A stretch of DNA of 32,674 nucleotides from Myxococcota bacterium. GTDB lineage: Bacteria; Myxococcota_A; Polyangia; Polyangiales; JBCCZL01. Below are positions 2,835-30,870 of the stretch, piece after piece (position 1 is the first letter of the stretch; each line of letters opens with the position of its first letter). The notes beneath the pieces were generated by a model. The model ran no database searches, was not told the origin of the DNA, and saw only the letters and a program-made list of their open reading frames with translations. A program made the position numbers and the translations under genes. The DNA lies in assembly GCA_039187775.1 (NCBI GenBank), contig JBCCZL010000024.1, positions 1 to 32,674 of the forward strand, given 5' to 3'.

Positions 2835-5342
2835 CTAGGGAACGACACTGGAGCAGGTCGCGTTGCATCGGTCGCCGCTCGTCGTGTTCCCGTCGTCGCA
2901 GACCTCGCCGCCGTCGAGGATGCCGTCGCCGCAGATCGGGACGGTGCAATCGAGGCGGCAAGCGGAGGGCGTATTGAATGCGCGAATCGTCAACGGCTGG
3001 GTGAGGTTTAGGCCGCTGAAGATGCTGCCTTCGTTCACCCAGCGCCAGTTCGAGATCCCCATCATGAACGATGGCGTGAGGGTGATCGTCCAGTTGCCGG
3101 GCAGGCTCAACCCTTGGGCGATGCCTCCATCGGTATTGGCGCGGAAGAACCAGCTGCCCGTAAACGTGCCGGCGCCGGTCTGTCGGAACTCTCCCGCATC
3201 GTCCGACAGAGACGCGATCGTCCCCGCGGGTACTCCCGTGAGCGTCATGTCGACCGAGGCGGTCGACTGGAAGATGCCCGAGGTGTCGAAGTCGATGCCG
3301 TGGACGAGGAAGAGACTGAGTGTCCCGGTGTTGAGGTCACGGTAAATAAAGATGTTGCTGAGCCCCGCCTGCTCAAACCCAGTGTGCGCGCTCGCCGACA
3401 CGAGGGCGTAGAACACCGTCGACGAGGTAAACCGCTGGAGCGGGTCGACCGCGGCGATCACTGTACCCCCCTGGCTGATTTCGATCGCCGGACGGTCGGT
3501 GTTCATCGCTCCGAGATCGCACTGCTCGCCCATTTCGACGATGCCATTGCCGCAGAAGTCGAGCTCGATGTCGCAGCTCGGAGTGCACCCGTCGCCGGGA
3601 AGCAGGTTGCCATCGTCGCAGGCTTCCATGCACTCGACGACCCCGTTGCCGCAAGCCTCGACCACGCAGGTGGCCGAACATCCATCGCAGGCGGTGGTGT
3701 TGCCGTCGTCGCAGGTCTCGCTGCACTCGACGACACTGTTGCCGCAGCCCTCGGTGGCGCAGGTCGCCGAACATCCATCGCAGTCGATGTTGTTCCCGTC
3801 ATCGCAGGTCTCGCCCGCGTCGATTCGCCCATCGCCGCAGCGCGGCGGAGGCGGTTCGTTGGTGCACGTCGGAGAGCAACCGTCGCCCGGGAGCAGATTT
3901 CCGTCGTCGCACTCCTCCATGCATTCGACGCGCGCATTTCCGCAGACCTCGCGGTCACACATCGGCGAACAGCCATCGCAGGCCACTGTATTGCCGTCGT
4001 CGCACACTTCGCCGGGGTCGACATTTCCGTCGCCGCAGCGGGGCGGAGGAGGCTCGATATTGCACATCGGGTCGCAGCCGTCGAGGGGTCGGTTGTTCCC
4101 GTCGTCGCACTGCTCCGAGCACTCCACGACCCGATTGCCGCATCGTTCGACCTGGCAGGCCACATCGCAGCCGTCGCACGCGGTGAGGTTTCCATCATCG
4201 CACTGCTCCCCCGGATCGATCCGGCCGTCGCCGCAGCGGGGGGCTTCGAGGATGCACATCGGATTGCAGCCGTCGCCTCCAACGTTGTTTCCGTCGTCGC
4301 ACTCCTCAAAGCATTCGAGGGTGCCGTTGCCGCAGGACTCGGTCGTGCAGATCGGCGAGCAGCCATCGCACGGGAAGTTGTTCCCATCGTCGCACTGCTC
4401 GGGCATCTCCAGCCGGCCGTTGCCGCAGCCAGCGAGCTCGATGGTGCACGTGCTCGAGCAACCGTCGTTGTCGATGAGGTTGCCGTCGTCGCACTGCTCG
4501 ATGCAATCGATTAGGCCATTGCCGCAGGACTCCGACGTGCAGAATGGCGAGCAGCCATCGCAGGGGAGATTGTTGCCGTCGTCACACATCTCGCCGGGCT
4601 CGACTCGCCCGTCGCCGCAGCGCCCCGCCTCGATCTCACACAGCGACGAGCACCCGTCGCCGTTGAGAAGGTTGCCGTCGTCGCATTCTTCTTCGCAGTC
4701 GATGATCCGATTGCCACAGGATTCGAGCGTGCACGCCGGCGAACATCCGTCGCAGGGTCGGTTCCCGCCGTCATCGCATTGCTCCCCGGGGTCGAGGACG
4801 CCATTGCCGCAGCCCGGGGCTTCGACTGTGCACGTGTCGCTGCACCCGTCGCCGCTCAGGAGGTTGCCGTCGTCGCAGCCCTCGAGGCAGTCGAGGACCC
4901 GGTTGCCGCATTCCTCGTTGATGCAGTCGCTCGAGCATCCGTCGCACGCTTCCAGGTTGCCGTCGTCGCACTGTTCGCCGGGATCGATACGGAAGTCCCC
5001 GCAGGCCGCGATTTCGAACTGGCAGGCCGACGAGCATCCATCGCCGTTGACCCGGTTGCCGTCGTCGCAGGCTTCCCCGGCGTCGAGGATCCCGTCGCCG
5101 CAGTTTTCGAGCTCCAGCCGGCATGCCATGTCGCAGCCGTCGCCGTTGTTCGTGTTCCCGTCGTCGCACTCTTCGCCTGCCTCGACGATGCCGTTGGGGC
5201 ACCCGACGGCGCTGTCGGTCCCCGAGTCGCGAACCGTGGCGTCGCGGGCAGTGCTATTGAGCGTCGACCGGCCGCACGCGGGCAGGAGGCCGAGGGCGAG
5301 AAACGCGACGGCCAGGGGGCCGACGAGGCGTCGAGAGAACAT
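2835..5342 (-). CDS. secreted lipoprotein with about 21 Myxococcus cysteine-rich repeats (Myxo_disulf_rpt / TIGR02232-type)
   Basis: 835 aa. The signal peptide plus lipobox is MFSRRLVGPLAVAFLALGLLPAC. About 21 units of roughly 36-40 aa of the form CGNGxxExGEECDDGNxxxGDGCSxxCxxE follow. The C-terminal region of about 230 aa is non-repeat and ends with one more repeat. Confidence 0.9.
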   Translation of the reverse strand: MFSRRLVGPLAVAFLALGLLPACGRSTLNSTARDATVRDSGTDSAVGCPNGIVEAGEECDDGNTNNGDGCDMACRLELENCGDGILDAGEACDDGNRVNGDGCSSACQFEIAACGDFRIDPGEQCDDGNLEACDGCSSDCINEECGNRVLDCLEGCDDGNLLSGDGCSDTCTVEAPGCGNGVLDPGEQCDDGGNRPCDGCSPACTLESCGNRIIDCEEECDDGNLLNGDGCSSLCEIEAGRCGDGRVEPGEMCDDGNNLPCDGCSPFCTSESCGNGLIDCIEQCDDGNLIDNDGCSSTCTIELAGCGNGRLEMPEQCDDGNNFPCDGCSPICTTESCGNGTLECFEECDDGNNVGGDGCNPMCILEAPRCGDGRIDPGEQCDDGNLTACDGCDVACQVERCGNRVVECSEQCDDGNNRPLDGCDPMCNIEPPPPRCGDGNVDPGEVCDDGNTVACDGCSPMCDREVCGNARVECMEECDDGNLLPGDGCSPTCTNEPPPPRCGDGRIDAGETCDDGNNIDCDGCSATCATEGCGNSVVECSETCDDGNTTACDGCSATCVVEACGNGVVECMEACDDGNLLPGDGCTPSCDIELDFCGNGIVEMGEQCDLGAMNTDRPAIEISQGGTVIAAVDPLQRFTSSTVFYALVSASAHTGFEQAGLSNIFIYRDLNTGTLSLFLVHGIDFDTSGIFQSTASVDMTLTGVPAGTIASLSDDAGEFRQTGAGTFTGSWFFRANTDGGIAQGLSLPGNWTITLTPSFMMGISNWRWVNEGSIFSGLNLTQPLTIRAFNTPSACRLDCTVPICGDGILDGGEVCDDGNTTSGDRCNATCSSVVP
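3520..5210. repeat. tandem DNA repeats of about 110-120 bp encoding the Cys-rich repeat array
   Basis: The periodic protein repeats are mirrored in the DNA (recurring gtcgtcgca / gccgttgccgca strings). They give rise to long spurious ORFs on the opposite strand (3114..4514, 3499..5394). Confidence 0.8.
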
Positions 5343-9352: not shown

Positions 9353-10444
9353 ATGCGAGTCTTTCCTCAGGCCTTCATCTTTCTGCTCGCACTGCTTGGC
9401 TGCGGTGGTGACGATTCCGCGTTGGATGACGCCGCGGTGGCCGATGCGTCGACGGACCTCACCGACGCGGAAACCCCCATGACGGACAGTGCGGGCGACG
9501 GCGCGGATGGAAGCGATGGCTCGGACAGCCAGGCGCCGAATTGCGAGCCGGCGACCGTGACGCCCGGACCCACCATGGCCACACTGAGCTTCGGCGCCGC
9601 CGACCGCCAATACCTCCTGTACATTCCGACTTCCCTCGTTCAGCCGGCCGCCCTCGTGCTCGCATTCCATGGCGGCGGAGGGGCCGGAAGCATTGGCTTG
9701 CTTCAGGGCACCGGGCTCCGCGCCAAAGCCGATGAGGAGGGGTTCGTGCTCGTTGCGCCAAGCGGTATCGGCGGGTTCTGGAGCGCGGGGTCCTGCTGTG
9801 GCCCGCAGGCGGTGGATGATGTCGGGTTTGTTCGCGCGGTGATCGACGACGTCGCCAGTCGGGTGTGCCTCGATCCGAGGCGAGTGTTCGCGACCGGTCA
9901 CTCGAATGGCGGCATGATGGCGTATCGGTTGGCCTGCGAGCTTTCGGACCGAATCGCGGCGGTAGCTCCGAGCGCGGGTTATCTCGTGAACATCAACAAT
10001 GGGCGCCAGGGTGCGCCAGTGGAACCACCGACCACGATCTACGAGTGCCTACCCACGCGGCCCGTGCCGGTGCTCACCGTCCACGGCACGGGAGATACCT
10101 GCGCGCCGATCGAGGGAGGCCCCGTCACATGTGGGGGCACGCTCCTTCGACCGCCCGTCGCCCACGGCGTCGACATTTTTCGCGACCGCAACGGCTGCAC
10201 CGGCGAAGGAACCGTGAGTTTCGAGAATGGGGCCGCCCGATGTCTCAGCTACGCACCGTGCCGCGAAGGGTCCGACGTCGTGTACTGCACCGTCGAAAAC
10301 GGCGGCCACACCTGGTTCGGCAATCTCGGAATGACCAATCCCGAAGAGTTCGGCGGCGTCTACTCCGACGACCTCATCATGCAAAACGCCGCCTGGGACT
10401 TCTTCGCGTCCCACCCCATGGCGCAACCCGGGGGGACGAGGTAA
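9353..10444 (+). CDS. secreted alpha/beta-hydrolase esterase, poly(3-hydroxybutyrate) depolymerase family (LpqC-like)
   Basis: Start chosen at ATG 9353 (MRVFPQAFIFLLALLGCGG, a lipoprotein signal). LVLAFHGGGGAG...FVLVAPSG...VFATGHSNGGMMAYRLA carries the GHSNGG nucleophile elbow typical of esterase_PHB / COG3509. The last codons and the stop (GGG ACG AGG TAA) lie inside the terminal repeat of the MITE-like element. Confidence 0.75.
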   Translation: MRVFPQAFIFLLALLGCGGDDSALDDAAVADASTDLTDAETPMTDSAGDGADGSDGSDSQAPNCEPATVTPGPTMATLSFGAADRQYLLYIPTSLVQPAALVLAFHGGGGAGSIGLLQGTGLRAKADEEGFVLVAPSGIGGFWSAGSCCGPQAVDDVGFVRAVIDDVASRVCLDPRRVFATGHSNGGMMAYRLACELSDRIAAVAPSAGYLVNINNGRQGAPVEPPTTIYECLPTRPVPVLTVHGTGDTCAPIEGGPVTCGGTLLRPPVAHGVDIFRDRNGCTGEGTVSFENGAARCLSYAPCREGSDVVYCTVENGGHTWFGNLGMTNPEEFGGVYSDDLIMQNAAWDFFASHPMAQPGGTR

Positions 10445-10634
10445 TTTTTTTCCTCACCACGATCGCTAAACCCTCGAAATTACAGCGCCCGCGTTTCGCT
10501 CATCGAGGACTCGCGACGCGTTCCTGAACCCATGACTTTTCGGGTGTTGGGCGCACGCCGATCCGCCGAATGCTGAAGCGAGTGATTCCAGGTATTTGGC
10601 GATCGTGGTGAGGAAAAAAATTACCTCGTCCCCT
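10432..10634. mobile_element. MITE-like element of about 203 bp with 35-bp perfect terminal inverted repeats (GGGGACGAGGTAATTTTTTTCCTCACCACGATCGC)
   Basis: Left end 10432-10466 and the reverse complement of right end 10600-10634 are identical over 35 bp. Similarity continues imperfectly for about 20 bp inward (CGATCGCTAAACCCTCGAAATTACAG versus CGATCGCCAAATACCTGGAATCACTC). There are no ORFs inside. A related unit pair recurs at 30283-30870. Confidence 0.55.
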
Positions 10635-10683
10635 GGAGTTGTCCTTCGATTGGGTGGCGCGGGTCTTGCTGATGGGGAGGCCG

Positions 10684-11355
10684 ATGCGGATTCGTGACAC
10701 ATGTTGGCTCGCGCTTTTGGCTGGTGCGGTGGCTGGGTGCTCGGCCGCCCATGGGCGCGGTGATGGGGACACCGAGGAGGTCGATGGGCAAGTTCCGGAT
10801 GCGAGAATTCCGGATGGGTCCACTCCCGACCGTTTGGTGCCGGATGGCAGTCCCGATGGGAATGCGTTGGTCTCCACGTGCAGGAGCAGCGCGGACTGTC
10901 CGTCGGACCTCATCTGTTCTTTGTTTCAACCGATCTATCGCTGCGGAGGTCCGGCTCCGTTCCTCGCCTGTTATCCGGGGGATGATCCGCGAGGGGAGCT
11001 CATCGACGGCGAGCTGGACCGGAGATGCGAAGAAGGGGCTCTCTGCGACCCCGACGACTGCGGCGGAAGTGCCTGCGTTCCGGATTGCCGAGGCGAGGAC
11101 GGGGCGTGGTGCGGTCGTGGTCGGACCTGCGACGACACGACGGGCCTGTGCCGGACCGTCACCTGCGACCGCGATCGCATTGCTTGCCCAGACCACTTTC
11201 GCTGCGCGGCGCCGGGGGTCGCCACTGACCTGCCCTCCCGGTGCCAACGCATTCCTTGCTCGGCCGACCGGGACTGCGCGGGAGGGGTCTGTGCCGAGGG
11301 GCGATGTTTCGCGGCCGCGGGACTGTGCGCCGAGCTGACTCCTCCGCCTCCCTGA
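10684..11355 (+). CDS. cysteine-rich secreted lipoprotein (hypothetical)
   Basis: ATG at 10684 preceded by GGGGAGG (short 3-nt spacer). Alternative starts are TTG 10639 and ATG 10672. MRIRDTCWLALLAGAVAGC is a lipoprotein signal. The mature part is Asp/Gly/Cys-rich (about 24 Cys) with no Myxo-repeat periodicity. Confidence 0.6.
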   Translation: MRIRDTCWLALLAGAVAGCSAAHGRGDGDTEEVDGQVPDARIPDGSTPDRLVPDGSPDGNALVSTCRSSADCPSDLICSLFQPIYRCGGPAPFLACYPGDDPRGELIDGELDRRCEEGALCDPDDCGGSACVPDCRGEDGAWCGRGRTCDDTTGLCRTVTCDRDRIACPDHFRCAAPGVATDLPSRCQRIPCSADRDCAGGVCAEGRCFAAAGLCAELTPPPP

Positions 11356-17378: not shown

Positions 17379-20300
17379 CTATAGCTCGTTGTCGGCGCGG
17401 AGCTTGGCGTCGACGCGGCGAATCAGCTCGAGGAGCTGCATCACGTGCTCGTGGAGAGCCTTGGAGTCGGCGAGATCTTGGTTGGCCCGCTGGACCAGGG
17501 GGAGGAGCGAGCGCTCGACCACCTGAAACTGCTGAGCGACGAGGGCACTGACGTCCTGGTTTGGAGCTGCCCCTTGAAGGCCAGGAGCGTCGAGGTGCAC
17601 TTCAACCTTCGGGTGCTGAAGCGCAATGAGGGCCTGCTCGAGTCGGGAGAGCTGGGGCGCGAGGGCTTCCACCAATGCGCTGTGCCCGTTGCCGTTCGGC
17701 TCGGCCGCGTGGGCTTCCTGTGCCTCGCGTCGCGCGGCTTCACGACGCTCGGCGTTTCGAACGGCTTCTAGCCGTTGTTCTTCGGCGCGTCGCTTGTCGG
17801 CCTCGGCCTGTGCCCGGGCCGAGTCCTCGACTGCCTTGCCGAGCGCCTCTCGAATGGAGGAGAGCTCCTGCCCGAGCACCGACAGCGTTCCCGTGACGCG
17901 GGTCACCGGGTCGTCCTCGGCGCCGCCCATGCTCTTTTGCCGGCGAAACTCGGCCTTGATCTCCTCCCAGCGCGCCCGCTGCTCATCGGTCATGCGGCCG
18001 CGCATTTCGGCGAGCTTAAGGAGATTCTGCTCCGCGCCGGTGGTGAGGGTCTGTGACTCCGAGGCGTAGTGGTCGTCGATGAGGCGCTCGAGCTCCTCGT
18101 CATTCATTGCCGAGACCACCTTTTCGGAGAGCTTGTTCATGTTCCGGTAGCTCCCCTGGAGCTTAAACGGGGGCTCGGTTCGAAAACTGTCCTCCTGGGA
18201 CGCCGACTCGATATACTTCAGGTTTACCGCGAGAAGCACGTCGCGGACTTTGAAGAGCCGCTCGAAGACCGCCGTCATCTCCGAGAGCTCCGCCCCCGAA
18301 TAGCCGTAGCTCAGATCGGTGGTCGCGACCTGCTCGCCCTCCGCCATCTTGATCACCTTGTACACATCGCCCTGCTCCCGCGTCGCGAGCGGGGAGAGCG
18401 CCGCGTTCGAGGTGAGCGAGTTCTCGATGTAGCTCAGCGCGAACTGCTGGTCCTTGCCCTCCAAGATATCGCCGAGATTGTAGGTGTCCGCGCGGTTCGC
18501 GAGCATGTCCGGGATCTGGAACTTATCGCCGCTCTCGGTGTACGGGTTTCCCGCCATCACCACGCAGAACTTCTTGCCGCGAAGGTCGTACGTTCGGGTC
18601 TTTCCTTTCCACACGCCCTCGACGCGACGCTGAGCGTCGCAAAGGCTGATGAATTTCTGAAGTAGCTCGGGATGGGTGTGCTGGATGTCGTCGAGATAGA
18701 GCATCACGTTGTTGCCCATCTCGAAGGCGAGGTTGATCTTCTCGACCTCTTGCCGAGCGGTCGCGTTCGGCGCCTCGCCGGGGTCGAGGGAATGCACCCC
18801 GTGCCCCAGCGAGGGACCGTTCACCTTCATGAACACGAGTCCGAGCCGGTTCGCGATGTACTCCATCAGCGTGGTCTTGCCGTAGCCCGGCGGCGAAATG
18901 AGGAGGAGGAGACCCATGAGATCGGTCCGCTTCCCCGCCCCCGCGGCGCCCATCTGCTTGGCGAGGTTGTCGCCGATCATCGGCAGATATACTTCGTTGA
19001 TGAGCCGGTTTCGCACAAACGAGCTCATCACTTTTGGCTTGTACTCCTCGAGTCGAAGCCGCTCGCGGTTGTCTTCGAGGAGCGAATGTCGAGCGTTTCG
19101 GTACTCGCGAAACGCCGGCGCGCGACGGTGGGCAAAGTCGCCGAGGCGCTCGAGGAACTCGTCGAGGCGAAGCTCCATCGTTCGGTTACTGATCCGCGGA
19201 TGTTGGCCGAGGAGCCCTTCGACCTTGATCGCCGTAAGCGCCTCGCTGAGATCGCGATCGAGACTCTCGGTCAAGAGGAGCCCCGCCGCCTCTTCGCTCG
19301 CATGGGCCACCGCCTGAACCTCTTCTCGGTCGCTCGCCCGCACGAACGCCTCCACCCACGCTCGGGTCAGCCGAATACGGGCTCCAAGATTGCCTCCGAG
19401 GCCCGCTCGGTCGTCGTCGAATGCCCGCCGGGTGCCCGCCACGTCGAGATGTGAAAGGAGCAGATCGCGGAGCTTGGCCGCATCGTGGCTCGTGACGAAG
19501 CGTGGTCGTTCCTCGCCGATCTCGTCGACCAGGTAGCGTCCGGCGAGAAGGCATTCCTCTTCGGAGGCTTCGACGCTGCGTTCTTGAAAGAACGCGTGAA
19601 TCTGGGTGCCAAGCTCCTCGCCAAACGCCGCGCGCTCGCCGGTGGGCCCGAACGCCTCGGTGAGTCGGCCGAGGCTGTATGCCCGTTGGTGGAGCTCCGC
19701 GCGAAGCGAGCCGTCGGAAAGGTGCGCCCAGTACAGGCAGCCAAGGGTCCGCGGCCCCGGCGGATAACGAAGGAGTGCCGCCGAGTCCCGGAGCACGAGA
19801 ATCTTCTCGAGGATCAGGGCCGCGTCGGCGTCGTGCACCCCTCGCTCGTAGCCCTCGTCGTAGCGATCTGCGGCCACCTTTCGGACGAGTCCGAGCAGGC
19901 CCCCGTCGTTTCGCTCCGCTTCGTGGAGGGCCGCAACGGAGAGCTGCTGGCTCTCCGCCTCCGCCGAAAAGAGGATGCTCGCGGCGAGATATTCGCCCCG
20001 ATACACCTCGCGGGTTTCGGAAATGTACTGCTGGTCCCAGAACGGCTCGGTCTTTCGAAAGTCCGCGTCCTCGACGAGTTCGTAGAAGTTCGTTCCCGTG
20101 AGGTGGAGCGCCATCTCGCCTTCGCGGGGCACGAGCGATAGCTCGAGGGGCTGGGTGTTCACGGTGAAGCGATGTTTGCCGAACTTGATGAGGTCTTCGC
20201 CTTCCTCGAAGAGCTCGAGCTTGTCCCGCATCGCCCGGAGCGAGTCCTGTCGGGCGGTCTTGAGGCGGGCTTCGACCTCCTCGGCCTTGACCGAGTCGTC

Positions 20301-22784
20301 GAGCTCGCGGAGCTGCTCCACGATTTGGCGGAGCTTCATCACCATCGGGTCGGACGCAAAGTAGGCGTTGAGCTCGTCCTGCTCCTTGAAGCTGCGCCAA
20401 CGCCGACCTACTCCTTCAAGAATTCGGTGGGCCGCGTTCATCAGGTTCTCTGCGCGGCGCTGGCGCTCATCGAGGAGGGCCTGCTTCTTCGAGCTGAACG
20501 CGTCGTAGATCTCTTCGCGTTTTTTGCCGATGTCTTCAAGGAACTCGTCGAAGTCGGAAAAGCGCGCCTCGAGCTCTTCGAGCTGCACCATCAACCGCGA
20601 GAGCTGCTCGTCGGTGCGTTCCGGCGTATCCGCGAGGGTGAGGCCGCTCGAAACGCTCTGCCCGAGGAGATTAAACTGTGCGGCGAACTCCGCTCGACCC
20701 TCCCGTCCGAGGAGCTCCTGCCGCTTGGCGGTGAGGGTGGCTCGGGTGCGGTTGAGCTGAGAGAAGACCTCGCTGATCGCCTCGAGAATTCGCGTACGTG
20801 CCGTGGCGTCGTCGACCTCGAGGCCGGCGACCACTTCGCTGATCACGTTGAGTCCTTCGCTTACCTTCTCGAGGCGTTCGATCAGCGGGTTGATGTCCGC
20901 GACTCGATCGACCTCGTCGGTCTTTTCGAGGAGGCCTTCGAGCTCGGCGATCACCGGCTTGAGCGCGTCGTCTCGGAGGAGAAACTGCACGCACTCTCGA
21001 CTGACGCGGTCGAAGTGCTTGACGACCTCGTCTTCGTTCTTCTGAATCGCGTCGAGGTCGATGTAGCGGATGTCCCGAAGGGTGATGAGATGACCCCGCT
21101 GGTGCCGAAGCGCGGTGAGGACGCCCATGTACGCGTCGACGCTCTGGAGCTCCTCGGTGTGCACCCGGCGCACGAGTTCGGTCTGTTCGGCTTCGGCCTT
21201 TTCCAGGGCCTCCCGAGCCCGGGTCTGCATCGCGAGGACCTTTTCGAACTCGTCGATCACGAGCTCGGCGGTGCGCTTGATCTCGTCCAGCACCGGCTTG
21301 AGCCCGACTTCGTCGTTGGCGAGCCAGTAATAGGCATCGAGGATGCGGTTGGTGGATTCGACGAGGTCGTCGTAGGTGTACCGCCGCGGGTCTTCCCGGT
21401 CGATGAGGCGCTTGATGCTGTAGGCATCGGAGATCCCTCGGACGAGCTCTGCGTTTCCGACCTTCGCGAGAAACGAGCCGTCGGTGGGCGCCGCCGCTGC
21501 GTGTTCCGCGCTGAAGAACGGCGTTCGCCAGATCTGCATCGGGTGGACCCGAGTCGGCTCGTCGCTCAGGGCGCGAAACACGAGCATTTGGCCGTCATCG
21601 AAGATCGAAAAGCCGTGGCACTGAATCGGGGTCTGGGCCTCTTTTCGAATCAGGTTGTACGGAAGAAGTTCGTAGCGGCCTTCGTCCTTCCGGTGGAACA
21701 CGTAGAGGACATCCTCGCCGTTCGGCGACTTGATGACCCGCTTCATCTGCAGGCCTTCGCGCTCCGCATCGAAGATCTTGTATTCGCCGGTTTGGAGGTA
21801 ATAGCCGCCGGGAAAGATGATTCCGTGGTCCTCGGGAAGCTGGCGGCAGGCTTCCCCGACCGCATCGATTCGATGCACCGACTGCTCGCGCGCGTTGAAG
21901 ACGAGGTAGCGAAACTTCGCCTCTCGGAACGGGAGGATTTTTAGGAGGAGCAGGCCTCCGAGCTTGGCGTAGTAGAACTCGCCGTCATCGAGGGTCTGAT
22001 TCGGGTCTTCGACCGGCTCCGCGTAGATGCCGCGGCCACTTTCGGTGTTGTTCTCGACTTTGATCGTGAGGTCGCCGCCGGTCGTCTCGATGAAGCACTC
22101 GTCGAGGATCGAAAGGTGGGGGAAGCGGCCGGTGACCTGATGGTCGCGGGTGGTTTGCGTCCACTCGAAGTCGTACGGCGGCGGCAGTACATGATCCCGA
22201 TCGCCGCGGCCGTCCATGTAGGAGAGCGTGCCGTCGGGGTGCACTTTCCAGCGGAAGACTTTGACCTCGTCGATAGTGGCCCCCGTCTGGAAAAGTGCGA
22301 GGAGCCGGGTGTCGGTCTTTCGAAGCTGAACGAGCCGGGTCTTGTCGTAATAGCGGTACAGTTCCTGGAACTCTTTGACGAACGCCGGGTCGGCGAGGAA
22401 CGCGTCGCCAGCCTCTCGATCGACTTCCCCAAAGTCGTAGGCGCCGTCGTTCACCGCAAACTTGTGAAGGCTGAACACGTCGGAGACATCGGTCTCCTTC
22501 TTGAGGCCTACGAACACGTTGTAGCCAAAGAGGACCTGGCCCTGGACGTTGAGGATGTCGCGCGGGACGCAGTTATTTTCGGTGCGGATGCGCTCGTTGG
22601 CGATGACCTCGAGTTCGGTGCCGCCGAAGACTTCTTTTCGCCGGGCGTTGAGCGCTTCGATCTGTTGCCCGAGGGCTTTCCCTTGGGCGATCAGCCGGTT
22701 GCGGATGACCTCGTAGTTGCCTCCTTCGAGGGAGCCTTCCGCACCTTCCGGGGTTTCTTCGCCCGCTGAGGCTTCGTCCGCCAT
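17379..22784 (-). CDS. giant (1801 aa) coiled-coil protein with a single AAA_5 (MoxR/McrB-like) ATPase module; function unknown
   Basis: It has a Walker A LISPPGYGKTTLMEYIANRLG (about residue 1297; nt about 18870-18900), a Walker B VMLYLDDIQ and a sensor-1-like FCVVMAGNPYTE. There is a globular N-terminal region of about 450 aa. Long Glu/Leu/Arg/Ala-rich predicted coiled coils flank the ATPase. The start lies 9 nt downstream of the flotillin stop. Confidence 0.85.
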   Translation of the reverse strand: MADEASAGEETPEGAEGSLEGGNYEVIRNRLIAQGKALGQQIEALNARRKEVFGGTELEVIANERIRTENNCVPRDILNVQGQVLFGYNVFVGLKKETDVSDVFSLHKFAVNDGAYDFGEVDREAGDAFLADPAFVKEFQELYRYYDKTRLVQLRKTDTRLLALFQTGATIDEVKVFRWKVHPDGTLSYMDGRGDRDHVLPPPYDFEWTQTTRDHQVTGRFPHLSILDECFIETTGGDLTIKVENNTESGRGIYAEPVEDPNQTLDDGEFYYAKLGGLLLLKILPFREAKFRYLVFNAREQSVHRIDAVGEACRQLPEDHGIIFPGGYYLQTGEYKIFDAEREGLQMKRVIKSPNGEDVLYVFHRKDEGRYELLPYNLIRKEAQTPIQCHGFSIFDDGQMLVFRALSDEPTRVHPMQIWRTPFFSAEHAAAAPTDGSFLAKVGNAELVRGISDAYSIKRLIDREDPRRYTYDDLVESTNRILDAYYWLANDEVGLKPVLDEIKRTAELVIDEFEKVLAMQTRAREALEKAEAEQTELVRRVHTEELQSVDAYMGVLTALRHQRGHLITLRDIRYIDLDAIQKNEDEVVKHFDRVSRECVQFLLRDDALKPVIAELEGLLEKTDEVDRVADINPLIERLEKVSEGLNVISEVVAGLEVDDATARTRILEAISEVFSQLNRTRATLTAKRQELLGREGRAEFAAQFNLLGQSVSSGLTLADTPERTDEQLSRLMVQLEELEARFSDFDEFLEDIGKKREEIYDAFSSKKQALLDERQRRAENLMNAAHRILEGVGRRWRSFKEQDELNAYFASDPMVMKLRQIVEQLRELDDSVKAEEVEARLKTARQDSLRAMRDKLELFEEGEDLIKFGKHRFTVNTQPLELSLVPREGEMALHLTGTNFYELVEDADFRKTEPFWDQQYISETREVYRGEYLAASILFSAEAESQQLSVAALHEAERNDGGLLGLVRKVAADRYDEGYERGVHDADAALILEKILVLRDSAALLRYPPGPRTLGCLYWAHLSDGSLRAELHQRAYSLGRLTEAFGPTGERAAFGEELGTQIHAFFQERSVEASEEECLLAGRYLVDEIGEERPRFVTSHDAAKLRDLLLSHLDVAGTRRAFDDDRAGLGGNLGARIRLTRAWVEAFVRASDREEVQAVAHASEEAAGLLLTESLDRDLSEALTAIKVEGLLGQHPRISNRTMELRLDEFLERLGDFAHRRAPAFREYRNARHSLLEDNRERLRLEEYKPKVMSSFVRNRLINEVYLPMIGDNLAKQMGAAGAGKRTDLMGLLLLISPPGYGKTTLMEYIANRLGLVFMKVNGPSLGHGVHSLDPGEAPNATARQEVEKINLAFEMGNNVMLYLDDIQHTHPELLQKFISLCDAQRRVEGVWKGKTRTYDLRGKKFCVVMAGNPYTESGDKFQIPDMLANRADTYNLGDILEGKDQQFALSYIENSLTSNAALSPLATREQGDVYKVIKMAEGEQVATTDLSYGYSGAELSEMTAVFERLFKVRDVLLAVNLKYIESASQEDSFRTEPPFKLQGSYRNMNKLSEKVVSAMNDEELERLIDDHYASESQTLTTGAEQNLLKLAEMRGRMTDEQRARWEEIKAEFRRQKSMGGAEDDPVTRVTGTLSVLGQELSSIREALGKAVEDSARAQAEADKRRAEEQRLEAVRNAERREAARREAQEAHAAEPNGNGHSALVEALAPQLSRLEQALIALQHPKVEVHLDAPGLQGAAPNQDVSALVAQQFQVVERSLLPLVQRANQDLADSKALHEHVMQLLELIRRVDAKLRADNEL

Positions 22785-22793
22785 CGGACCCGG

Positions 22794-24920
22794 CTATTCG
22801 AGGCCGAGGTGTTTGGCCTGGTCGGCGAGGGCTTGGAGTTTGCCCTTGGTGGTCTCGTCGGCGCCGCTCATCAGCTTCGCAAGGATCGCGCTGACGCTGA
22901 GATTGCGGACCGTCTCCGAACTGATCGCCGGGCGAGACAGCACCTCGACCACATCGGCAGGAAGGGACTTGTCGCCGTTGAGGTACTCGGCGAGGAGCGT
23001 TTGCACGGTGTCGCTGTTGTGCACCATGCCGTCGGCGGACTGTCCGAGCGACACTGCGTTGACGAACCGGTCGAAGAACTCGCCGTCGCCGCCCACGATG
23101 TTGATCTTCGCGTTGGTCATCGCCTGGCTCATCACCTTGGCCTGATGCTCGGCGATCTCGGTGCGCGCATCGATGTGGCGGAGGTCGACTTCCTTTTCCT
23201 TCTCGAGACGGATCCGGAACTCTTCGTGTTCGCGGCCGACCCCATCGAGGGCCTTCATCGCGTTGGCCTTTTCGGCAAGGCCTGCCGCTTCGGCGCTGAG
23301 CTTCTTTTCGATGGCGAGCGCTTCGGCGAGGCCGGTCTGCTCGATGGCTTTCGCGTGCGCCTCTTTGATACGCGCTTCGGCCAACCCCTGGGCCTCCTGG
23401 CCGGTGGCCTCCGCGTTCATCTTCTCGCGGACCACCGCGGCGGTGGCGAGGCCTTCCTTTTCAGTGATCGCCGCGGCCGCATCGCGCACCCGGACCTCGG
23501 CGAGGCCCTCTTTTTCGATGGCGGCGGCATTCGCTTCCTTCACCCGGACCTGAGCGAGGCCCTGGGCGGCGGCTTCGGCCTGGGTCCCTTCGGCGAGGCG
23601 CATCTTCGCGCGCGCTTCTTTGTCGGACGCTTCGAGGTCGGCCTCGGCGATGGTGAGCGTTTCTTTGGCCTTGAGCCGCGAGACCTGCTCCTGCGCTTCC
23701 GCGGCCTTCACCGTCTTGAGCAGTTCCTCTTCCGCCTTCGCTTCGGCGGTGATGACGGTGGCTTCTTTCTTTCGCTTCGCGTCGGCCACGAGCCGGAGGT
23801 CTTTGATGCGCTCTTCTTCTTCGGCCACGGTCTTGTCGACGGCCACCCGGGAGCGAACGACGTCGGCGATCTCTTTCTTCTGGACCTCGACCTCCTTGTT
23901 CTTGGAGATCGTCTGGAGTTCGGTTTCCCGGTGTCGAGAAATCTCTTCGAGGGCGCGCGCTTTTTCGACCCGCTCGGTTTCGACGCCGATTTCGCGCTCT
24001 CGGTTTTTCTGGGCGACGGCGATGCCGCGCTGCTTCGCTTCGTCGGCGACGGCGATCTCTTCTTCGTGCTTCTGCCGAAGCATCATGGTGCGCTTGTGCT
24101 CTTCGTCCCGGACCCGGATCGCCTCGTTTTCTTCGCGGGCCTGCGCGCTCACGATCTCTTTGTTCTTCTTGGCTTCCGCTTCGGCGCGGCGCTGGTCGAA
24201 CTGAAAGATCGCTTCGTCGGCGGTGAGGTTTTGGCTGCCGATCTCCATGCGCTCTTTCTGGCGAAGCTCGTTGGTATGGACGTTCTGCGCCGCGGTGATC
24301 TCGGTGATCTTTCGAATGCCCTGGGAGTCGAGGATGTTCTGCGCGTCGAGTTTTTCGACCGGGGTCTGTTCGAGGTAGTCGATCGCGGCGTCGTTGAGGG
24401 TGTAACCGTCGAGATCATCTCCGATGACGCCGACGATGTTCTTCCGGAACTCGGATCGCTTGGTGTAGAGATCGGCAAAGTCAAACTGCTTGCCGACCGT
24501 CTTGAGGGCCTCTGAGAACTTGGCGCTAAACAGGTTGTCGATGGTTTGGGGGTCGGAGGCACGCTGGCAGCCGATAAGTCGGGCGACCTTGAGTACGTCT
24601 TCGGGCTCCTTGTTGACCTGGACAAAGAACGTGACGCGGATGTCAGCGCGAATGTTGTCTCGGCAAATGAGTCCGTCGGTGCCTCGGCGGTCGATGTCGA
24701 TCGTCTTGACCGAGATGTCCATGATCTCCGCGCGATGAACGATCGGAAAGACGACGGTTCCCGTGAAGGTCGTTTCGATCTTGCCGCGCATTTTGTTGAC
24801 GATGAGCGCTCGGCCCTGATCCACCTTGCGGTAGAAGCGTGCGAGCATCGCGAGGATGCCCATCAGGACAACGACGACGAAGCCGACTCCGACGAGGACA
24901 GGTAAAATATCTTCCAGCAT
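22794..24920 (-). CDS. flotillin-family SPFH (band 7) protein, YqiK/FloT-like
   Basis: 708 aa. It has an N-terminal TM (LPVLVGVGFVVVVLMGILAMLA) and an SPFH domain. A long EA-rich flotillin-type coiled-coil region (EAEAKKNKEIVSAQAREENEAIR..., AEAKAEEELLKTVKAAEAQEQ...) and a C-terminal tail follow. Confidence 0.85.
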   Translation of the reverse strand: MLEDILPVLVGVGFVVVVLMGILAMLARFYRKVDQGRALIVNKMRGKIETTFTGTVVFPIVHRAEIMDISVKTIDIDRRGTDGLICRDNIRADIRVTFFVQVNKEPEDVLKVARLIGCQRASDPQTIDNLFSAKFSEALKTVGKQFDFADLYTKRSEFRKNIVGVIGDDLDGYTLNDAAIDYLEQTPVEKLDAQNILDSQGIRKITEITAAQNVHTNELRQKERMEIGSQNLTADEAIFQFDQRRAEAEAKKNKEIVSAQAREENEAIRVRDEEHKRTMMLRQKHEEEIAVADEAKQRGIAVAQKNREREIGVETERVEKARALEEISRHRETELQTISKNKEVEVQKKEIADVVRSRVAVDKTVAEEEERIKDLRLVADAKRKKEATVITAEAKAEEELLKTVKAAEAQEQVSRLKAKETLTIAEADLEASDKEARAKMRLAEGTQAEAAAQGLAQVRVKEANAAAIEKEGLAEVRVRDAAAAITEKEGLATAAVVREKMNAEATGQEAQGLAEARIKEAHAKAIEQTGLAEALAIEKKLSAEAAGLAEKANAMKALDGVGREHEEFRIRLEKEKEVDLRHIDARTEIAEHQAKVMSQAMTNAKINIVGGDGEFFDRFVNAVSLGQSADGMVHNSDTVQTLLAEYLNGDKSLPADVVEVLSRPAISSETVRNLSVSAILAKLMSGADETTKGKLQALADQAKHLGLE

Positions 24921-25051
24921 GGCCCACTCCCGCGCGCGAGGTGGCCGTCAAGGCCCCCTCCAAAATCGCCGCCTGATCTACACGATCGCAGAGGGGGTGT
25001 CACCGCCGATGCCGATGAACTCGCGAAGGGCGCGCCGCGGGGAACCCTGAA

Positions 25052-25849
25052 TTACTTGGACTTCTCGTGGAGGATCGAGTCCATCGCTTCGACCTCGAAG
25101 GTGTCGCTCGCTTCGTCGTAGTCCACGAGGAGCACCCGCGCGTTGGGGTCGAGGGCGGAGTCCGCGCGGACCCGGAGAAGGCTGCCCGAACCGTCGTCCA
25201 GCGTGGCCTGGCCTTTTTCTCCGGGGTCGGCGTGCACCCGGACTCGGGCGACCTTTCCAACGAGAGTTCGCTTGCTTGGCGCTTTGTTCGAGACGAAGAG
25301 CTTGCCGATCGGCCGGCTGGTGAGGGACGCGAGAGGAAGGGCTACGAACAGGGAGGCGAAAAGGACGGTGAGTTGGCCGGCGATATCCGGTCCGGGAATG
25401 AGCGGGGCGGCGAACTTCGCCGCGTAGTAACAAACCAGCCAGCCAAACAGGAACAGCAAGCTGAGCGAGATGGTGATCGGGGCCTTTCGCAGACTGAACA
25501 CGCCTAGAAGCGCGGCGAGGGCCCCTTCGCCGCCGCCCGCGCCGCCGCCGCCGCCGTCCCCTGCCTCGCCGACGTCGGCCGCACCGGTGAGGTCGTCGCC
25601 AACATCTCCGTCCCCGAAGTCTCCCTCCCCAAGGTCGATGTCTGCGTCGCCCATGCCCGCATCGCCCGCGCCCGCGTCGCCCACGCCGGCATCTCCCACG
25701 TCCGCGTCGGCTCCGAGGTCGAGATCGAGCGCGCCGAGCATGACAAAGAGCCAATACATCAGCGACAGGAGGATCCCGGCGGTGAAGACCACCGTCGGAA
25801 AGCCAAACGCAATGGCGACAAACTCGTCCACGGGGCACCACCCTCGCAC
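25052..25849 (-). CDS. NfeD-like / YqiJ-like inner-membrane protein (OB-fold C-terminus) with an acidic Gly/Asp/Ala-rich low-complexity insert
   Basis: 265 aa with two TM segments, a GDAGVGDAGAGDAGMGDADIDLGEGDFGDGDVGDD linker and a C-terminal NfeD OB-fold-like region TLVGKVARVRVHADPGEKGQATLDDGSGSLLRVRADS...LLVDYDEASDTFEVE. It lies 131 nt upstream of flotillin, with a GGGAG SD-like sequence before the flotillin ATG. Confidence 0.75.
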   Translation of the reverse strand: MRGWCPVDEFVAIAFGFPTVVFTAGILLSLMYWLFVMLGALDLDLGADADVGDAGVGDAGAGDAGMGDADIDLGEGDFGDGDVGDDLTGAADVGEAGDGGGGGAGGGEGALAALLGVFSLRKAPITISLSLLFLFGWLVCYYAAKFAAPLIPGPDIAGQLTVLFASLFVALPLASLTSRPIGKLFVSNKAPSKRTLVGKVARVRVHADPGEKGQATLDDGSGSLLRVRADSALDPNARVLLVDYDEASDTFEVEAMDSILHEKSK

Positions 25850-25897
25850 GGCTTTCCAAGCAAAGGAACCCCGCTTGGCTTCGTGATCGCCGCGAGG

Positions 25898-26296: not shown

Positions 26297-26427
26297 CTTT
26301 CGCCCCTCGGTTTCCCAAGTGTAGAGGGATGTCGGCCGCGATTCGAGCAGTTCCCACGGGGCCGGCGGGAACACCGAGAGTCGTCGGGTGTCGAAGGGGC
26401 GTGGCGACGCCTCGACGGACGAAATCG

Positions 26428-27039: not shown

Positions 27040-27056
27040 GAGGTCCTGAGCGTGCG

Positions 27057-30282: not shown

Positions 30283-30352
30283 GGCGGTTGAGTGATTTCA
30301 GGCGGTTGGCGATCGTGGTGGGGCAAGAAATTACCTCGTCCCCGTTTGTTGC
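30283..30352. repeat. palindromic repeat unit (inverted copy of the MITE terminal unit)
   Basis: GAGTGATTTCAGGCGGTTGGCGATCGTGGTGGGGCAAGAAATTACCTCGTCCCCGTTTGTTGC matches 32/35 to the reverse complement of the 10432 unit, plus an extended match (GAGTGATTYCAGG..TTGGCGATCGTGGTG) to the 10564-10634 arm. It contains the hairpin GCAAGAAA-N14-TTTGTTGC. Confidence 0.6.
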
Positions 30353-30358: not shown

Positions 30359-30442
30359 GACGGGTTGGCTTGGTTCGTAGTACCGCGGAGTTGGCGGGCG
30401 GCTTGTTAACGACTCTGGCCGTCGAGCTTGGGGGGCCTTGAT

Positions 30443-30453: not shown

Positions 30454-30723
30454 ATGATGCCCATTGAGTGGTTGCGGGGGCTTGTCGAGCGGGAAGCGGG
30501 CTACGAGGAGCTCGTCGAGCGAAGCGGCAGTCTGTCGGTGGCGGCACATCGCGTCGCGTCGGCTCGGTGTCAGACATGGTCGACTCCCACCGTCGTTCCA
30601 ACCGGTGCGGAGCTCCGGGCAGCGGCGCTCGAGATTGTTCGACGAGTCGACCTCCCCACGTCGGTTCCCACCGTCCAAGCGCTCCGCTCCGACTGCGAAG
30701 CCCGCGGCCTCCTCGTGCTCTAA
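30454..30723 (+). CDS. small hypothetical protein (89 aa) enclosed by inverted repeat units
   Basis: MMPIEWLRGLVEREAGYEELVERSGSLSVAAHRVASARCQTWS... It has a consensus RBS and GC-rich third positions, with no recognisable motif. It is flanked by an inverted unit at 30283-30352 and direct units at 30743-30870. Confidence 0.5.
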   Translation: MMPIEWLRGLVEREAGYEELVERSGSLSVAAHRVASARCQTWSTPTVVPTGAELRAAALEIVRRVDLPTSVPTVQALRSDCEARGLLVL

Positions 30724-30742
30724 CCCATCGACCCGCCACAAA

Positions 30743-30870
30743 CGGGGACGAGGTAATTTGTCGCAACAAACGGGGACGAGGTAATTTGTTGCCTCACCAC
30801 AACAAACGGGGACGAGGTAATTTGTTGCCTCACCACGATCGCTAACCTGCCGAAATCATGCGGCCAGGTT
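30743..30870. repeat. three tandem, progressively longer copies of the palindromic repeat unit (GCAACAAACGGGGACGAGGTAATTTGTTGC[CTCACCAC[GATCGCTAACC...]])
   Basis: The copies start at about 30743, 30771 and 30807. Each forms the hairpin GCAACAAA-cggggacgaggtaa-TTTGTTGC (perfect 8-bp stem). Only the third is full length (CCTCACCACGATCGCTAACCTGCCGAAATCATG), matching the 10432 unit and its inner extension. Confidence 0.65.

What the first reader, a model, noticed from the sequence alone, without database searches (positions are those of the whole stretch)
10432..10634. MITE-like element of about 203 bp with 35-bp perfect TIRs that supplies the stop codon of the esterase gene
10432-10466 and the reverse complement of 10600-10634 are identical (GGGGACGAGGTAATTTTTTTCCTCACCACGATCGC). 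Similarity continues imperfectly inward, so the element is a near-palindrome centred at about 10533 with no coding capacity. The last three codons and the TAA stop of the PHB-depolymerase-like gene (..GGG ACG AGG TAA) are inside the left TIR, so the insertion appears to have replaced the native C-terminus. The right end lies 5-50 nt upstream of the next gene (the Cys-rich lipoprotein), so it may also influence that gene's expression. No target-site duplication could be identified by eye.
Basis: seen in the sequence. Interest (0 to 1): 0.65.

Follow-up and report, generated by a model that had tools for sequence, protein, structure and literature searches.

The report
Lineage-private inverted repeat, MITE-like foldback
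Two inverted copies of a ~60-nt repeat, seen only in this uncultured myxobacterial contig, sit between an esterase gene and a lipoprotein gene and supply the esterase's last six codons and its stop codon; it looks like a small, low-copy mobile-type repeat, but it does not meet the definition of a classical MITE.

Summary
It is not a 203-bp near-palindrome. The arms are 60 nt (10424-10483 / 10582-10641, 83% complementary), and the 98 nt between them is no more palindromic than shuffled sequence. The repeated entity is a ~60-nt unit with two invariant boxes (GGGGACGAGGTAATTT and CACCACGATCGC). The window holds four full copies and two truncated tandem ones, at two loci. At the second locus (30293-30858) the arms face the opposite way and bracket a genuine, conserved 89-aa gene. 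The esterase keeps its family-typical C-terminal motif. The unit starts exactly where homologues end and adds QPGGTR plus the stop. No target-site duplication exists at any plausible boundary. No transposase or recombinase is on the contig. No further copy was found in the genome, metagenome, viral, plasmid or phage collections, in 5.8 billion proteins (translated frames), or in ~150 kb from relatives and sibling MAGs. Rfam, Tn3/TIME ends and REP-like hairpins were tested and rejected. Best reading: a new, low-copy interspersed repeat of mobile origin that creates a long intercistronic hairpin (confidence ~0.5). An invertible-segment reading is not excluded. Interest is modest.

The parts
9353..10444 (+). 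PHB-depolymerase-family esterase gene (363 aa as annotated by NCBI, P0001). The last 6 codons (QPGGTR) and the TAA lie inside unit A.
10424..10483 (+). Unit A (head CAAC... to tail ...GAAATTAC). The perfect 35-nt core is 10432-10466 and contains box 1 GGGGACGAGGTAATTT and box 2 CACCACGATCGC. GC 50% against 64% for the contig.
10484..10581 (.). 98-nt spacer between the tails of A and B. It is not palindromic, has native-like GC (63%), and has no ORF with an RBS and no consensus promoter or terminator.
10582..10641 (-). Unit B, an inverted copy of A. The perfect core is 10599-10633. Its head lies 31-43 nt upstream of the lipoprotein start codons.
10672..11355 (+). Cys-rich lipoprotein gene immediately downstream (start 10672 as called on the Logan contig, or 10684 with a GGAGG RBS). 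No family match.
30293..30352 (-). Unit C, head pointing right (inward). Its head ends flush with the T-tract/TTGACG promoter-like element of the small gene.
30454..30723 (+). 89-aa gene bracketed by units C and D. It has an AAGGAG RBS and a coding-type GC1/2/3 pattern, and belongs to a conserved unannotated family (101 clusters).
30736..30764 (+). u1, a truncated head copy (CCACAAACGGGGACGAGGTAATTTGTCGC) containing box 1 only.
30764..30800 (+). u2, a truncated copy (head + box 1 + CCTCACCAC). It forms a 36-nt x 2.0 tandem repeat at 100% identity with the start of D.
30800..30858 (+). Unit D, a full copy with its head pointing left (inward). It is 90% complementary to C over 59 nt.

Best explanation
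The feature is one locus of a small, lineage-restricted family of interspersed ~60-nt repeat units that spread as DNA, i.e. mobile-type, non-autonomous repeats in the broad MITE/BOX/ERIC class. Each unit is asymmetric. It runs head RCAAC-N4, then box 1 GGGGACGAGGTAATTT, a 7-nt variable spacer, box 2 CACCACGATCGC, and a looser tail ending GAAATCA. The two invariant boxes are most simply the recognition sequence of a trans-acting protein encoded elsewhere in the genome. At locus 1 two units lie tail-to-tail, 98 nt apart, forming a 218-bp foldback that fills the esterase-lipoprotein intergenic region. The left unit landed on the original end of the esterase gene, so the protein now carries a 6-residue tail (QPGGTR) and uses a TAA from the repeat. 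If the region is transcribed from the esterase promoter, the arms fold into a 35-bp perfect (60-bp imperfect) stem that begins at the stop codon and ends ~30-40 nt before the lipoprotein RBS. That stem would act as a barrier or processing site (RNase III substrate, 3'-end stabiliser, or roadblock) that uncouples the two genes. Shown: the repeat, its anatomy, its position relative to the family C-terminus, its absence from relatives, and its folding potential. Inferred: mobility, the trans-acting protein, transcription through the element, and any effect on expression.
For: The same unit occurs at two unrelated intergenic loci 20 kb apart. There are six copies of the exact 16-mer, with 0 expected by chance. 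The units are 48-55% GC in a 64% GC contig, while the spacer between them is native-like at 63%. Unit A starts exactly where 59 homologous esterases end and adds a non-homologous tail plus the stop. Unit C ends flush against a T-tract/TTGAC element that is also present upstream of a 60%-identical homologue that lacks the unit. Homologues of the flanked genes in relatives have no such repeats. No comparable inverted repeat exists elsewhere in the window or in 80 kb of relatives. Conservation is strongly uneven: boxes 28/28 invariant against 15/35 for the rest, Fisher p=2.6e-7, which fits a protein-recognised sequence. The unit alone has no fold (z -1.6 to +0.8) and no covariation, whereas the pairs fold very strongly (locus 1 -122 kcal/mol, z=-9.7; locus 2 z=-8.2). 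Truncated tandem copies, one of them 100% identical, indicate recent DNA-level turnover. From the literature: bacterial MITEs can be low-copy (TIMEs 1-4 per genome, PMC4133298; MITEAba12 1-22, PMC10969869), have lower GC than the host, make in-frame fusions, cluster, and act through RNA hairpins (CREE/RNase III, PMC2649163).
Against: No target-site duplication at any boundary. No transposase or recombinase on the 32.7-kb contig. No additional copy found anywhere: genome, metagenome and viral collections, plasmids and phages, translated frames against 5.8 billion proteins, and ~150 kb from relatives and sibling MAGs of the same study. The only second locus has the arms reversed and brackets a native gene, which a simple TIR element does not predict. 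Arms within a locus are more alike than arms between loci (A-B core 35/35, C-D 33/35, between loci 32-33/35). That pattern could instead reflect selection for pairing or gene conversion. There is no U-tract after the stem and no terminator or promoter consensus. Transcription and any RNA-level effect are untested.
Confidence: 0.5

Rival explanations
1. Invertible DNA segments (invertons). The units are recombination sites for a trans-acting site-specific recombinase, and each inverted pair flips the DNA between it: a 98-133-bp switch upstream of the Cys-rich lipoprotein gene, and a 450-bp segment carrying the small gene with its promoter.
For: Both loci are inverted pairs of the same sequence around short segments (98 and 448 nt), and one lies directly upstream of a surface lipoprotein gene. 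The opposite head/tail arrangement at the two loci is irrelevant for inversion. Within-locus homogenisation of the arms (35/35 and 33/35) is what recombining repeats show. The invariant boxes fit protein recognition.
Against: No recombinase on the contig. The core has no dyad symmetry (169-435 of 500 shuffles score at least as well), whereas invertase and tyrosine-recombinase core sites are typically symmetric. No promoter consensus in the locus-1 spacer in either orientation. Units A and D lie at gene 3' ends, and the truncated tandem copies are not explained. No read-level evidence is available: the Logan unitig simply breaks in the 35-nt arm, as k=31 predicts.
Confidence: 0.1
2. Non-mobile cis-regulatory sites. 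The boxes are operators for a DNA-binding regulator that binds both members of a pair and loops the intervening DNA to control the lipoprotein gene and the small gene.
For: The invariant bipartite 16+12-nt boxes at fixed spacing contrast with variable flanks. Copies B and C lie upstream of + strand genes in the same orientation. Three closely spaced box-1 copies at 28- and 36-nt spacing resemble cooperative binding arrays.
Against: Copies A and D lie at or over the 3' ends of genes, and A overlaps a stop codon, which is not where operators evolve. The unit is absent upstream of homologues in relatives. No dyad symmetry. 35-60 nt is long for an operator. Lower GC and insert-like boundaries point to acquired DNA.
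Confidence: 0.12
3. A locally generated relic. One unit was copied by inverted and tandem duplication or template switching, and spread between the two loci by an old rearrangement (for example a ~20-kb inversion between copies). It has no present function and no dedicated mobility.
For: Only two loci exist, on a single contig, and no copies are found elsewhere. No TSD. Perfect tandem duplication shows slippage-type processes operate here. Copies A/C and B/D are inverted relative to each other, so they could mediate a 20-kb inversion.
Against: 28/28 invariant box positions beside ~40-60% variable flanks is not neutral decay. Unit boundaries coincide precisely with a gene end and with a promoter, which suggests discrete insertions. 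Four full copies, all intergenic with the head next to a gene, is a non-random pattern.
Confidence: 0.15
4. An RNA element that evolved in place: a long intercistronic stem (terminator, attenuator or RNase III site), or an sRNA gene, selected for base pairing rather than inserted.
For: Very stable folds at both loci (z=-9.7, -8.4, -8.2). The arms co-vary between loci (T7/A7 at locus 1 against GTTG/CAAG-type at locus 2).
Against: No Rfam family, even at E<=5. No U-tract or terminator consensus. No strand preference in the G-U-compatible mismatches (by inspection of the sequences). Identical primary sequence at two unrelated loci is not expected for independently evolved stems. Enclosing a whole gene and its promoter inside a 450-nt loop is not a known regulatory design.
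Confidence: 0.08
5. Assembly artefact (a chimeric foldback created by the assembler).
For: Metagenome assemblies can create palindromic joins, and the source is a MAG contig.
Against: An independent Logan assembly of run SRR22824305 reproduces the right arm and its junction with the lipoprotein flank base for base, stopping only where k=31 must stop. A second locus carries diverged copies. The ORFs on both sides are intact.
Confidence: 0.02

Closest known systems
[quoted passage not shown]
   Same: Small (about 200 bp), non-coding, bounded by long inverted repeats, lower GC than the host, intergenic or gene-end location, can alter the ends of ORFs, can be very low copy (1-4 per genome for TIMEs), and needs a transposase supplied in trans.
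   Different: No target-site duplication. The interior is not shared between loci. The second locus has the arms reversed around a native gene. Conservation extends 8 nt outside the GGGG 'tips'. There is no sequence similarity to Tn3 or Tn21 ends beyond GGGG, and no cognate transposase is known.
Correia repeat-enclosed elements (CREE/NEMIS) of Neisseria (PMC2649163)
   Same: About 100-150-bp inverted-repeat elements next to genes. When co-transcribed they form long hairpins that are bound or cleaved by RNase III, and they can change expression of the downstream gene. This is the best functional analogy for locus 1.
   Different: CREE have 26-bp TIRs, TA target duplications, an IHF site and hundreds of copies, and they can create promoters. 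None of these was found here, and only two loci are known.
Modular pneumococcal BOX elements and ERIC/IRU elements (own knowledge; PMC10969869 for overview)
   Same: Built from short modules that occur in variable number and arrangement (boxA-boxB(n)-boxC). They include tandem module copies and clusters, fold into stable stems, and have no clear transposase or TSD. This resembles the unit-level organisation and the u1/u2/D tandem copies.
   Different: They are different sequences in different phyla, with tens to hundreds of copies. BOX and ERIC modules keep a fixed order, whereas here one asymmetric unit appears in both relative orientations.
REP / REPIN / BIME elements mobilised by RAYT transposases (own knowledge)
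   Same: Short intergenic units that occur singly or as inverted pairs in both head-to-head and tail-to-tail arrangements, without TSDs. They often lie right after stop codons and act as mRNA 3' stabilisers or terminators.
   Different: Each REP is itself a 20-40-nt hairpin with a conserved 5' tetranucleotide. This 60-nt unit has no fold of its own. REP families have hundreds of copies and a flanked RAYT gene, and neither was seen here.
Invertible promoters / invertons (fimS, Bacteroides Mpi-controlled switches; own knowledge)
   Same: Inverted repeats of shared sequence at several loci flank 100-500-bp segments upstream of surface-protein genes and are acted on by one recombinase in trans.
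   Different: No recombinase, no second orientation, no promoter in the segment and no symmetric core were detected. The repeats here are much longer (35-60 nt) than typical inverton IRs.
Rickettsia palindromic elements (RPE; PMC10969869)
   Same: Palindromic repeats that become part of coding sequence and modify proteins by in-frame fusion.
   Different: RPEs insert inside ORFs and are translated throughout. Here only 6 codons plus the stop are contributed, at the extreme 3' end.

Membership tests
MITE (classical, TIR-type) | Terminal inverted repeats bounding a short non-coding element | tested here: met
   35-nt perfect / 60-nt 83% arms, 218 bp overall, no ORF with an RBS inside
MITE (classical, TIR-type) | Target-site duplication flanking the element | tested here: not met
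   No direct repeat of 2-10 bp at the GGGG tips, the CAAC/GTTG ends, the locus-2 tails or an A..C composite, with +-4 nt slop
MITE (classical, TIR-type) | Several copies of the whole element (ends plus interior) at different sites | tested here: not met
   Only the 60-nt arms recur and the interior is not shared. The second locus has reversed arms. There are no copies in any searchable collection.
MITE (classical, TIR-type) | Cognate autonomous element or transposase with matching TIRs | not testable with these tools
   None on the contig. The remaining contigs of the MAG are not available.
TIME / Tn3-family ends | ~38-bp IR homologous to Tn3-family IRs (GGGG tip ... TAAG inner end) | tested here: not met
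   The Tn3 and Tn21 IRs were first verified in plasmid records. All unit copies score at or below shuffles against them once GGGG is excluded, while the Tn3-vs-Tn21 control is significant.
TIME / Tn3-family ends | 5-6-bp AT-rich direct repeats (PMC4133298) | tested here: not met
   Flanks are CCCGG and TGGAG at locus 1
REP / REPIN | Each unit is itself an imperfect palindrome forming a hairpin | tested here: not met
   Single units fold no better than shuffles (z -1.6 to +0.8). No covarying pairs.
REP / REPIN | High copy number and an associated RAYT gene | tested here: inconclusive
   Two loci in 32.7 kb, none in ~150 kb of relatives and sibling MAGs. No Y1 transposase on the contig. The whole genome was not seen.
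Inverton (invertible segment) | Inverted repeats flanking a short segment next to a regulated gene | tested here: met
   Locus 1 lies 31-51 nt upstream of the lipoprotein start. Locus 2 encloses the small gene.
Inverton (invertible segment) | Both orientations present in the population (reads) | not testable with these tools
   No read access. The Logan unitig ends in the arm, as k=31 predicts. Look-ups of the locus-2 proteins returned nothing.
Inverton (invertible segment) | Site-specific recombinase, and a recombination core with dyad symmetry | tested here: not met
   No recombinase on the contig. No dyad symmetry in the 35-nt core. A trans-acting enzyme elsewhere in the genome cannot be excluded.
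Known structured RNA (Rfam) | Match to a curated covariance model | tested here: not met
   No hit at gathering score for the window, nor at E<=5 for either locus
Intrinsic terminator | GC-rich stem followed by a U-tract | tested here: not met
   No terminator-like site at either locus. The 3' arm is followed by CTGGAGTTGTCC.

The most novel reading that the evidence does not exclude
The units are recognition sites of a trans-acting site-specific recombinase, and both loci are invertible segments. That would mean phase-variable control of a Cys-rich surface lipoprotein, and of a small conserved gene that is flipped together with its promoter, in an uncultured Myxococcota lineage. As far as I know, invertons have not been described in this phylum. 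A more remote variant is that the asymmetric units in opposed orientation are polar protein-DNA barriers (replication or transcription roadblocks).
Probability: 0.1. Interest if true: 0.65.

Novelty: new member of a known kind. Interest (0 to 1): 0.3.

Why it matters
If the best reading holds, this is a previously undescribed family of small interspersed repeats in Myxococcota, a phylum for which I found no published MITE or REP-type elements. It is also a clean example of such a repeat re-writing the 3' end of a gene and placing a very long hairpin between two genes. That is useful for annotating MAGs: gene ends, spurious ORFs, and contig breaks at 35-nt inverted repeats. It also gives a handle for finding the protein that recognises the two invariant boxes. 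It does not open or settle a major question. The unusual points are the reversed arm orientation around a native gene, the invariant bipartite core, the absence of a TSD, and the extreme rarity in public data. These make it worth a read-level check for inversion, which would raise its importance considerably.

Tried and rejected
(1) Known RNA families: Rfam at gathering score for the whole window and at E<=5 for both loci gave nothing.
(2) Sigma-70 promoter and intrinsic terminator consensus at both loci: nothing.
(3) A REP-like self-folding unit or a conserved unit structure: no fold and no covariation.
(4) A 203-bp near-palindrome: the interior is not palindromic.
(5) A longer shared element body beyond the tails: an apparent A/C similarity sat at inconsistent offsets and partly inside the APP1 coding sequence, so it was rejected.
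(6) Tn3-family/TIME ends (a lead from memory): the IRs were verified in plasmid records and then shown to be unrelated. No 5-bp DR.
(7) A composite transposon B..D or A..C (20 kb): the interior is ordinary chromosomal genes, with no transposase and no TSD.
(8) A mobile cassette carrying the small gene: the gene family is widespread without the repeats and has no plasmid or phage homologues.
(9) Retron, DGR, CRISPR and integron attC: no RT, no spacers, no integrase, and perfect 35-bp pairing with a 218-bp length is unlike attC. This was judged by inspection only.
(10) Further copies were searched for as follows, all negative or chance:
- A 23-base pattern in the genome, metagenome and viral collections.
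- The 16-mer in genomes: 107+ single chance hits, at most 18/44 identity outside the seed.
- A 20-base pattern in metagenomes.
- Four translated frames against 5.8 billion proteins.
- An nhmmer profile on ~150 kb from rhodanese relatives, small-gene relatives and three sibling MAGs of the same study.
- blastn against plasmids and phages.
(11) Empty-site comparison: impossible, because the nearest esterase is 47% identical and the nearest rhodanese 61%, with no synteny.
(12) Dyad symmetry of the core, as expected for a dimeric site: not above shuffles.
Full report
OBSERVATION. The sequence GGGGACGAGGTAATTTTTTTCCTCACCACGATCGC is present at 10432-10466 on the + strand, and as a perfect reverse complement at 10599-10633. 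None of 100 dinucleotide-preserving shuffles produced a match even with 3 mismatches. Complementarity extends to 60-nt arms, 10424-10483 and 10582-10641, at 83%. It does not continue further inward. The 98 nt between the arms aligns to its own reverse complement no better than shuffled sequence (145 of 500 shuffles score at least as well). The feature is therefore two inverted 60-nt units around an unrelated spacer (218 bp), not a 203-bp near-palindrome. An independent Logan assembly of run SRR22824305 reproduces the right arm and its flank exactly and stops 30 nt into the perfect arm, as a k=31 graph must. So the structure is real, and the break says nothing about copy number.

SOURCE AND CONTEXT. 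The window is a whole 32,674-bp contig of an NCBI 'Myxococcota bacterium' MAG. It carries ordinary chromosomal genes: a GGDEF protein, a DUF4215 Cys-rich repeat protein, a GH5 cellulase, a PHB-depolymerase-type esterase, a rhodanese, an ECF sigma/anti-sigma pair, YaaA, a molybdopterin oxidoreductase, ChaC, a 1801-aa DUF3686 ATPase, an APP1 phosphatase and an Imm5-like protein. There is no transposase, integrase or invertase.

THE REPEATED ENTITY IS A ~60-nt UNIT. A second locus at 30293-30858 carries the same sequence. Aligning the four long copies in one orientation gives this layout: head RCAAC-N4, box 1 GGGGACGAGGTAATTT, a 7-nt spacer (nTTnCCn), box 2 CACCACGATCGC, and a looser tail ...GAAATyA. 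Similarity between copies fades beyond the tail. An apparent extension between copies A and C was at inconsistent offsets and partly inside the APP1 coding sequence. The two boxes are invariant at 28/28 positions in the four full copies, against 15/35 for the rest of the unit (Fisher p=2.6e-7). Box 1 is exact in all six copies.

At locus 1 the units are tail-to-tail, with heads outward. At locus 2 they are head-to-head, with heads inward, around a 448-nt segment. On the right side they are preceded by two truncated tandem copies: u1 at 30736-30764 and u2 at 30764-30800. The u2/D duplication is 36 nt x 2.0 at 100% identity. The units are 48-55% GC in a 64% GC contig, while the locus-1 spacer is 63%.

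RELATION TO THE FLANKING GENES. An alignment of the esterase with 59 homologues shows that almost all end immediately after the conserved W.FF..HP(M/L/R)(P/R) motif. The window protein reads ...WDFFASHPMA and then QPGGTR*, and the Q codon (10424-10426) is the first codon of unit A. The repeat therefore abuts the family-typical C-terminus and contributes a 6-residue tail and the stop. No conserved residue is lost, so 'replaced the native C-terminus' overstates it. Unit B's head ends 31-43 nt before the two candidate start codons of the Cys-rich lipoprotein gene.

At locus 2 the bracketed ORF (30454-30723) is a real gene. It has an AAGGAG RBS, a coding-type GC1/2/3 pattern (0.73/0.53/0.74), and 101 representative clusters that match end to end at up to 60% identity. 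It has no Pfam, NCBIfam, PDB or PHROG assignment. A 60%-identical homologue (L115) has no flanking inverted repeat and no unit, but it shares a CTTTTTTGAC element upstream. In the window, that element starts exactly where unit C's head ends. So the segment between C and D is native DNA, with the units placed flush against it.

IS IT A DISPERSED FAMILY? Every accessible route was negative.
- The 23-base two-box pattern gave 0 hits in 185,579 representative genomes, the JGI metagenomes and IMG/VR.
- The 16-mer alone gave only single, taxonomically scattered hits whose flanks match the unit at chance level (at most 18/44).
- A 20-base variant gave 0 hits in metagenomes.
- Translations of the four open frames of the unit found nothing among 5.8 billion proteins.
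- blastn against plasmids and phages found nothing relevant.
- The nearest relatives are distant (esterase 47% or less, rhodanese 61% or less) and not syntenic, so no empty site can be shown.
- An nhmmer profile of the unit found nothing in ~95 kb from those relatives, in the small-gene homologues' contigs, or in ~57 kb from three Myxococcota MAGs of the same study (runs SRR22824306/7, JBCC... accessions).
- No comparable local inverted repeat exists elsewhere in the window or in 80 kb of relatives.
The remaining contigs of the source MAG could not be reached, so copy number in the genome itself is unknown.

STRUCTURE. A single unit does not fold better than shuffles (z from -1.6 to +0.8) and shows no covarying pairs on either strand. 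Its 35-nt core has no dyad symmetry above shuffles. The pairs fold very strongly as RNA: locus 1 gives -122 kcal/mol with z=-9.7 on the + strand and z=-8.4 on the - strand. At locus 2 the arms pair around the whole small gene, z=-8.2. No Rfam family matches, even at E<=5. No consensus promoter or U-tract terminator is present.

TESTS OF KNOWN FAMILIES.
- Classical MITE: TIRs and small non-coding size are met. A TSD is not met at any boundary, and recurrence of the whole element is not met.
- TIME/Tn3 ends: I recalled that Tn3-family IRs are ~38 bp and start with GGGG. I verified the Tn3 and Tn21 IR sequences in plasmid records and then showed that the unit is no more similar to them than shuffled sequence, while the Tn3-vs-Tn21 control is significant. 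The 5-6-bp direct repeats that define TIME insertions (PMC4133298) are also absent.
- REP/REPIN: the unit is not a hairpin.
- Inverton: the architecture fits, but a recombinase, a symmetric core and a second orientation are missing or untestable.
The literature shows that low copy number alone does not exclude a MITE (1-4 TIMEs per genome, PMC4133298; 1-22 MITEAba12 copies, PMC10969869). It also shows that MITEs make in-frame fusions, cluster, and act through RNA hairpins (PMC10969869; Correia elements and RNase III, PMC2649163). I found no paper describing MITE- or REP-type repeats in myxobacteria.

INTERPRETATION. Several features point to acquired, DNA-level dispersed repeats rather than sites that evolved in place. 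They have discrete boundaries that coincide with a gene end and with a promoter. Their GC is lower than the contig's. They are absent around homologues. Truncated tandem copies are present. The same asymmetric unit appears at two unrelated intergenic loci.

The invariant bipartite boxes beside variable flanks indicate recognition of primary sequence by a protein encoded elsewhere. I therefore rank 'new, low-copy interspersed repeat of mobile type that here forms a MITE-like foldback' first (about 0.5). Its likely consequence, which is inferred and not shown, is a very long intercistronic hairpin starting at the esterase stop codon that insulates or processes the esterase-lipoprotein transcript.

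The unit, not the 203-bp segment, is what recurs. There is no TSD, and the second locus has the arms reversed around a native gene.

Arms within a locus are more alike than arms between loci (35/35 and 33/35 against 32-33/35 in the core). That is compatible with separate origins, with gene conversion, or with selection for pairing. It keeps alive an inversion-switch reading (about 0.1), a looping-operator reading (about 0.12), a functionless local relic (about 0.15) and an in-place RNA element (about 0.08). An assembly artefact is very unlikely (about 0.02).

VERDICT. The repeat is real and statistically unambiguous. It is a new member of the broad class of small bacterial interspersed repeats. 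It is not demonstrably a MITE, and its mechanism is unresolved because the rest of the genome and the reads are out of reach. Interest is modest (0.3). It would rise if read mapping showed inversion, or if the complete MAG revealed a cognate enzyme.

Noticed in passing
window 30454-30723 (+); L115 3001-3318; L117 18-281: The 89-aa ORF between the locus-2 arms belongs to a conserved, unannotated small-protein family. 101 representative clusters match it, nearly all 85-110 aa, with invariant W6, P49 and G85 and a C-terminal CEAxGLxV motif. It has no Pfam, NCBIfam, PDB or PHROG match. In L115 a Pol-beta-type nucleotidyltransferase gene follows it.
   Followed up: partly
window 30351-30362; L115 ~2950-2965: A T-tract followed by TTGAC (GCTTTTTTGACG / GCTTTTTTGACA) lies upstream of the small gene both in the window and in a 60%-identical homologue from another metagenome. 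This is probably a conserved -35/UP-like promoter element of that gene family.
   Followed up: partly
window 2835-5342 (-): An 835-aa protein made of at least 13 DUF4215 Cys-rich repeats. At the DNA level it is a 93/192/198-nt tandem array with 8-10 copies at 60-75% identity.
   Followed up: partly
window 27688-27767 and 25644-25709: Two short in-ORF tandem repeats: 15 nt x 5.3 at 98% (GCGGAGGACGATGTG) inside ORF 27057-28001 (-), and 15/30 nt x 4.2 at 77-86% inside ORF 24978-26021 (-). Both ORFs lack any family match. These are possible slippage-variable proteins.
   Followed up: no
window 17379-28001 (-): A co-directional block: a 1801-aa DUF3686/DUF7902/AAA(MoxR-like) ATPase, followed by 708-aa, 347-aa and 314-aa proteins with no Pfam or NCBIfam hits. 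It may be an uncharacterised multi-gene system.
   Followed up: no
window 30914-31591 (-): A 225-aa protein with a borderline Imm5-like (polymorphic-toxin immunity) match (24.9 bits against a cut-off of 25) lies immediately downstream of unit D, convergent with the small gene.
   Followed up: no
L001 (Logan SRR22824305_200534), end at window 10604: The read-derived unitig stops exactly 30 nt into the 35-nt perfect arm. Short perfect inverted repeats like this fragment k=31 assemblies and can be mistaken for evidence of high copy number.
   Followed up: yes
L118, L120, L122 (GCA_039208735.1, GCA_039024335.1, GCA_039194325.1): Three other Myxococcota MAGs come from the same study and sibling runs (SRR22824306/7). 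L122 has the same GC (0.640) as the window. About 57 kb from them contains no copy of the unit.
   Followed up: yes
L109 7015-8332: In the closest rhodanese relative (61% identity, ENA contig) an IS256-family (Transposase_mut) gene, split into two ORFs, lies ~850 bp downstream of the rhodanese gene. It is unrelated to the unit studied here.
   Followed up: no
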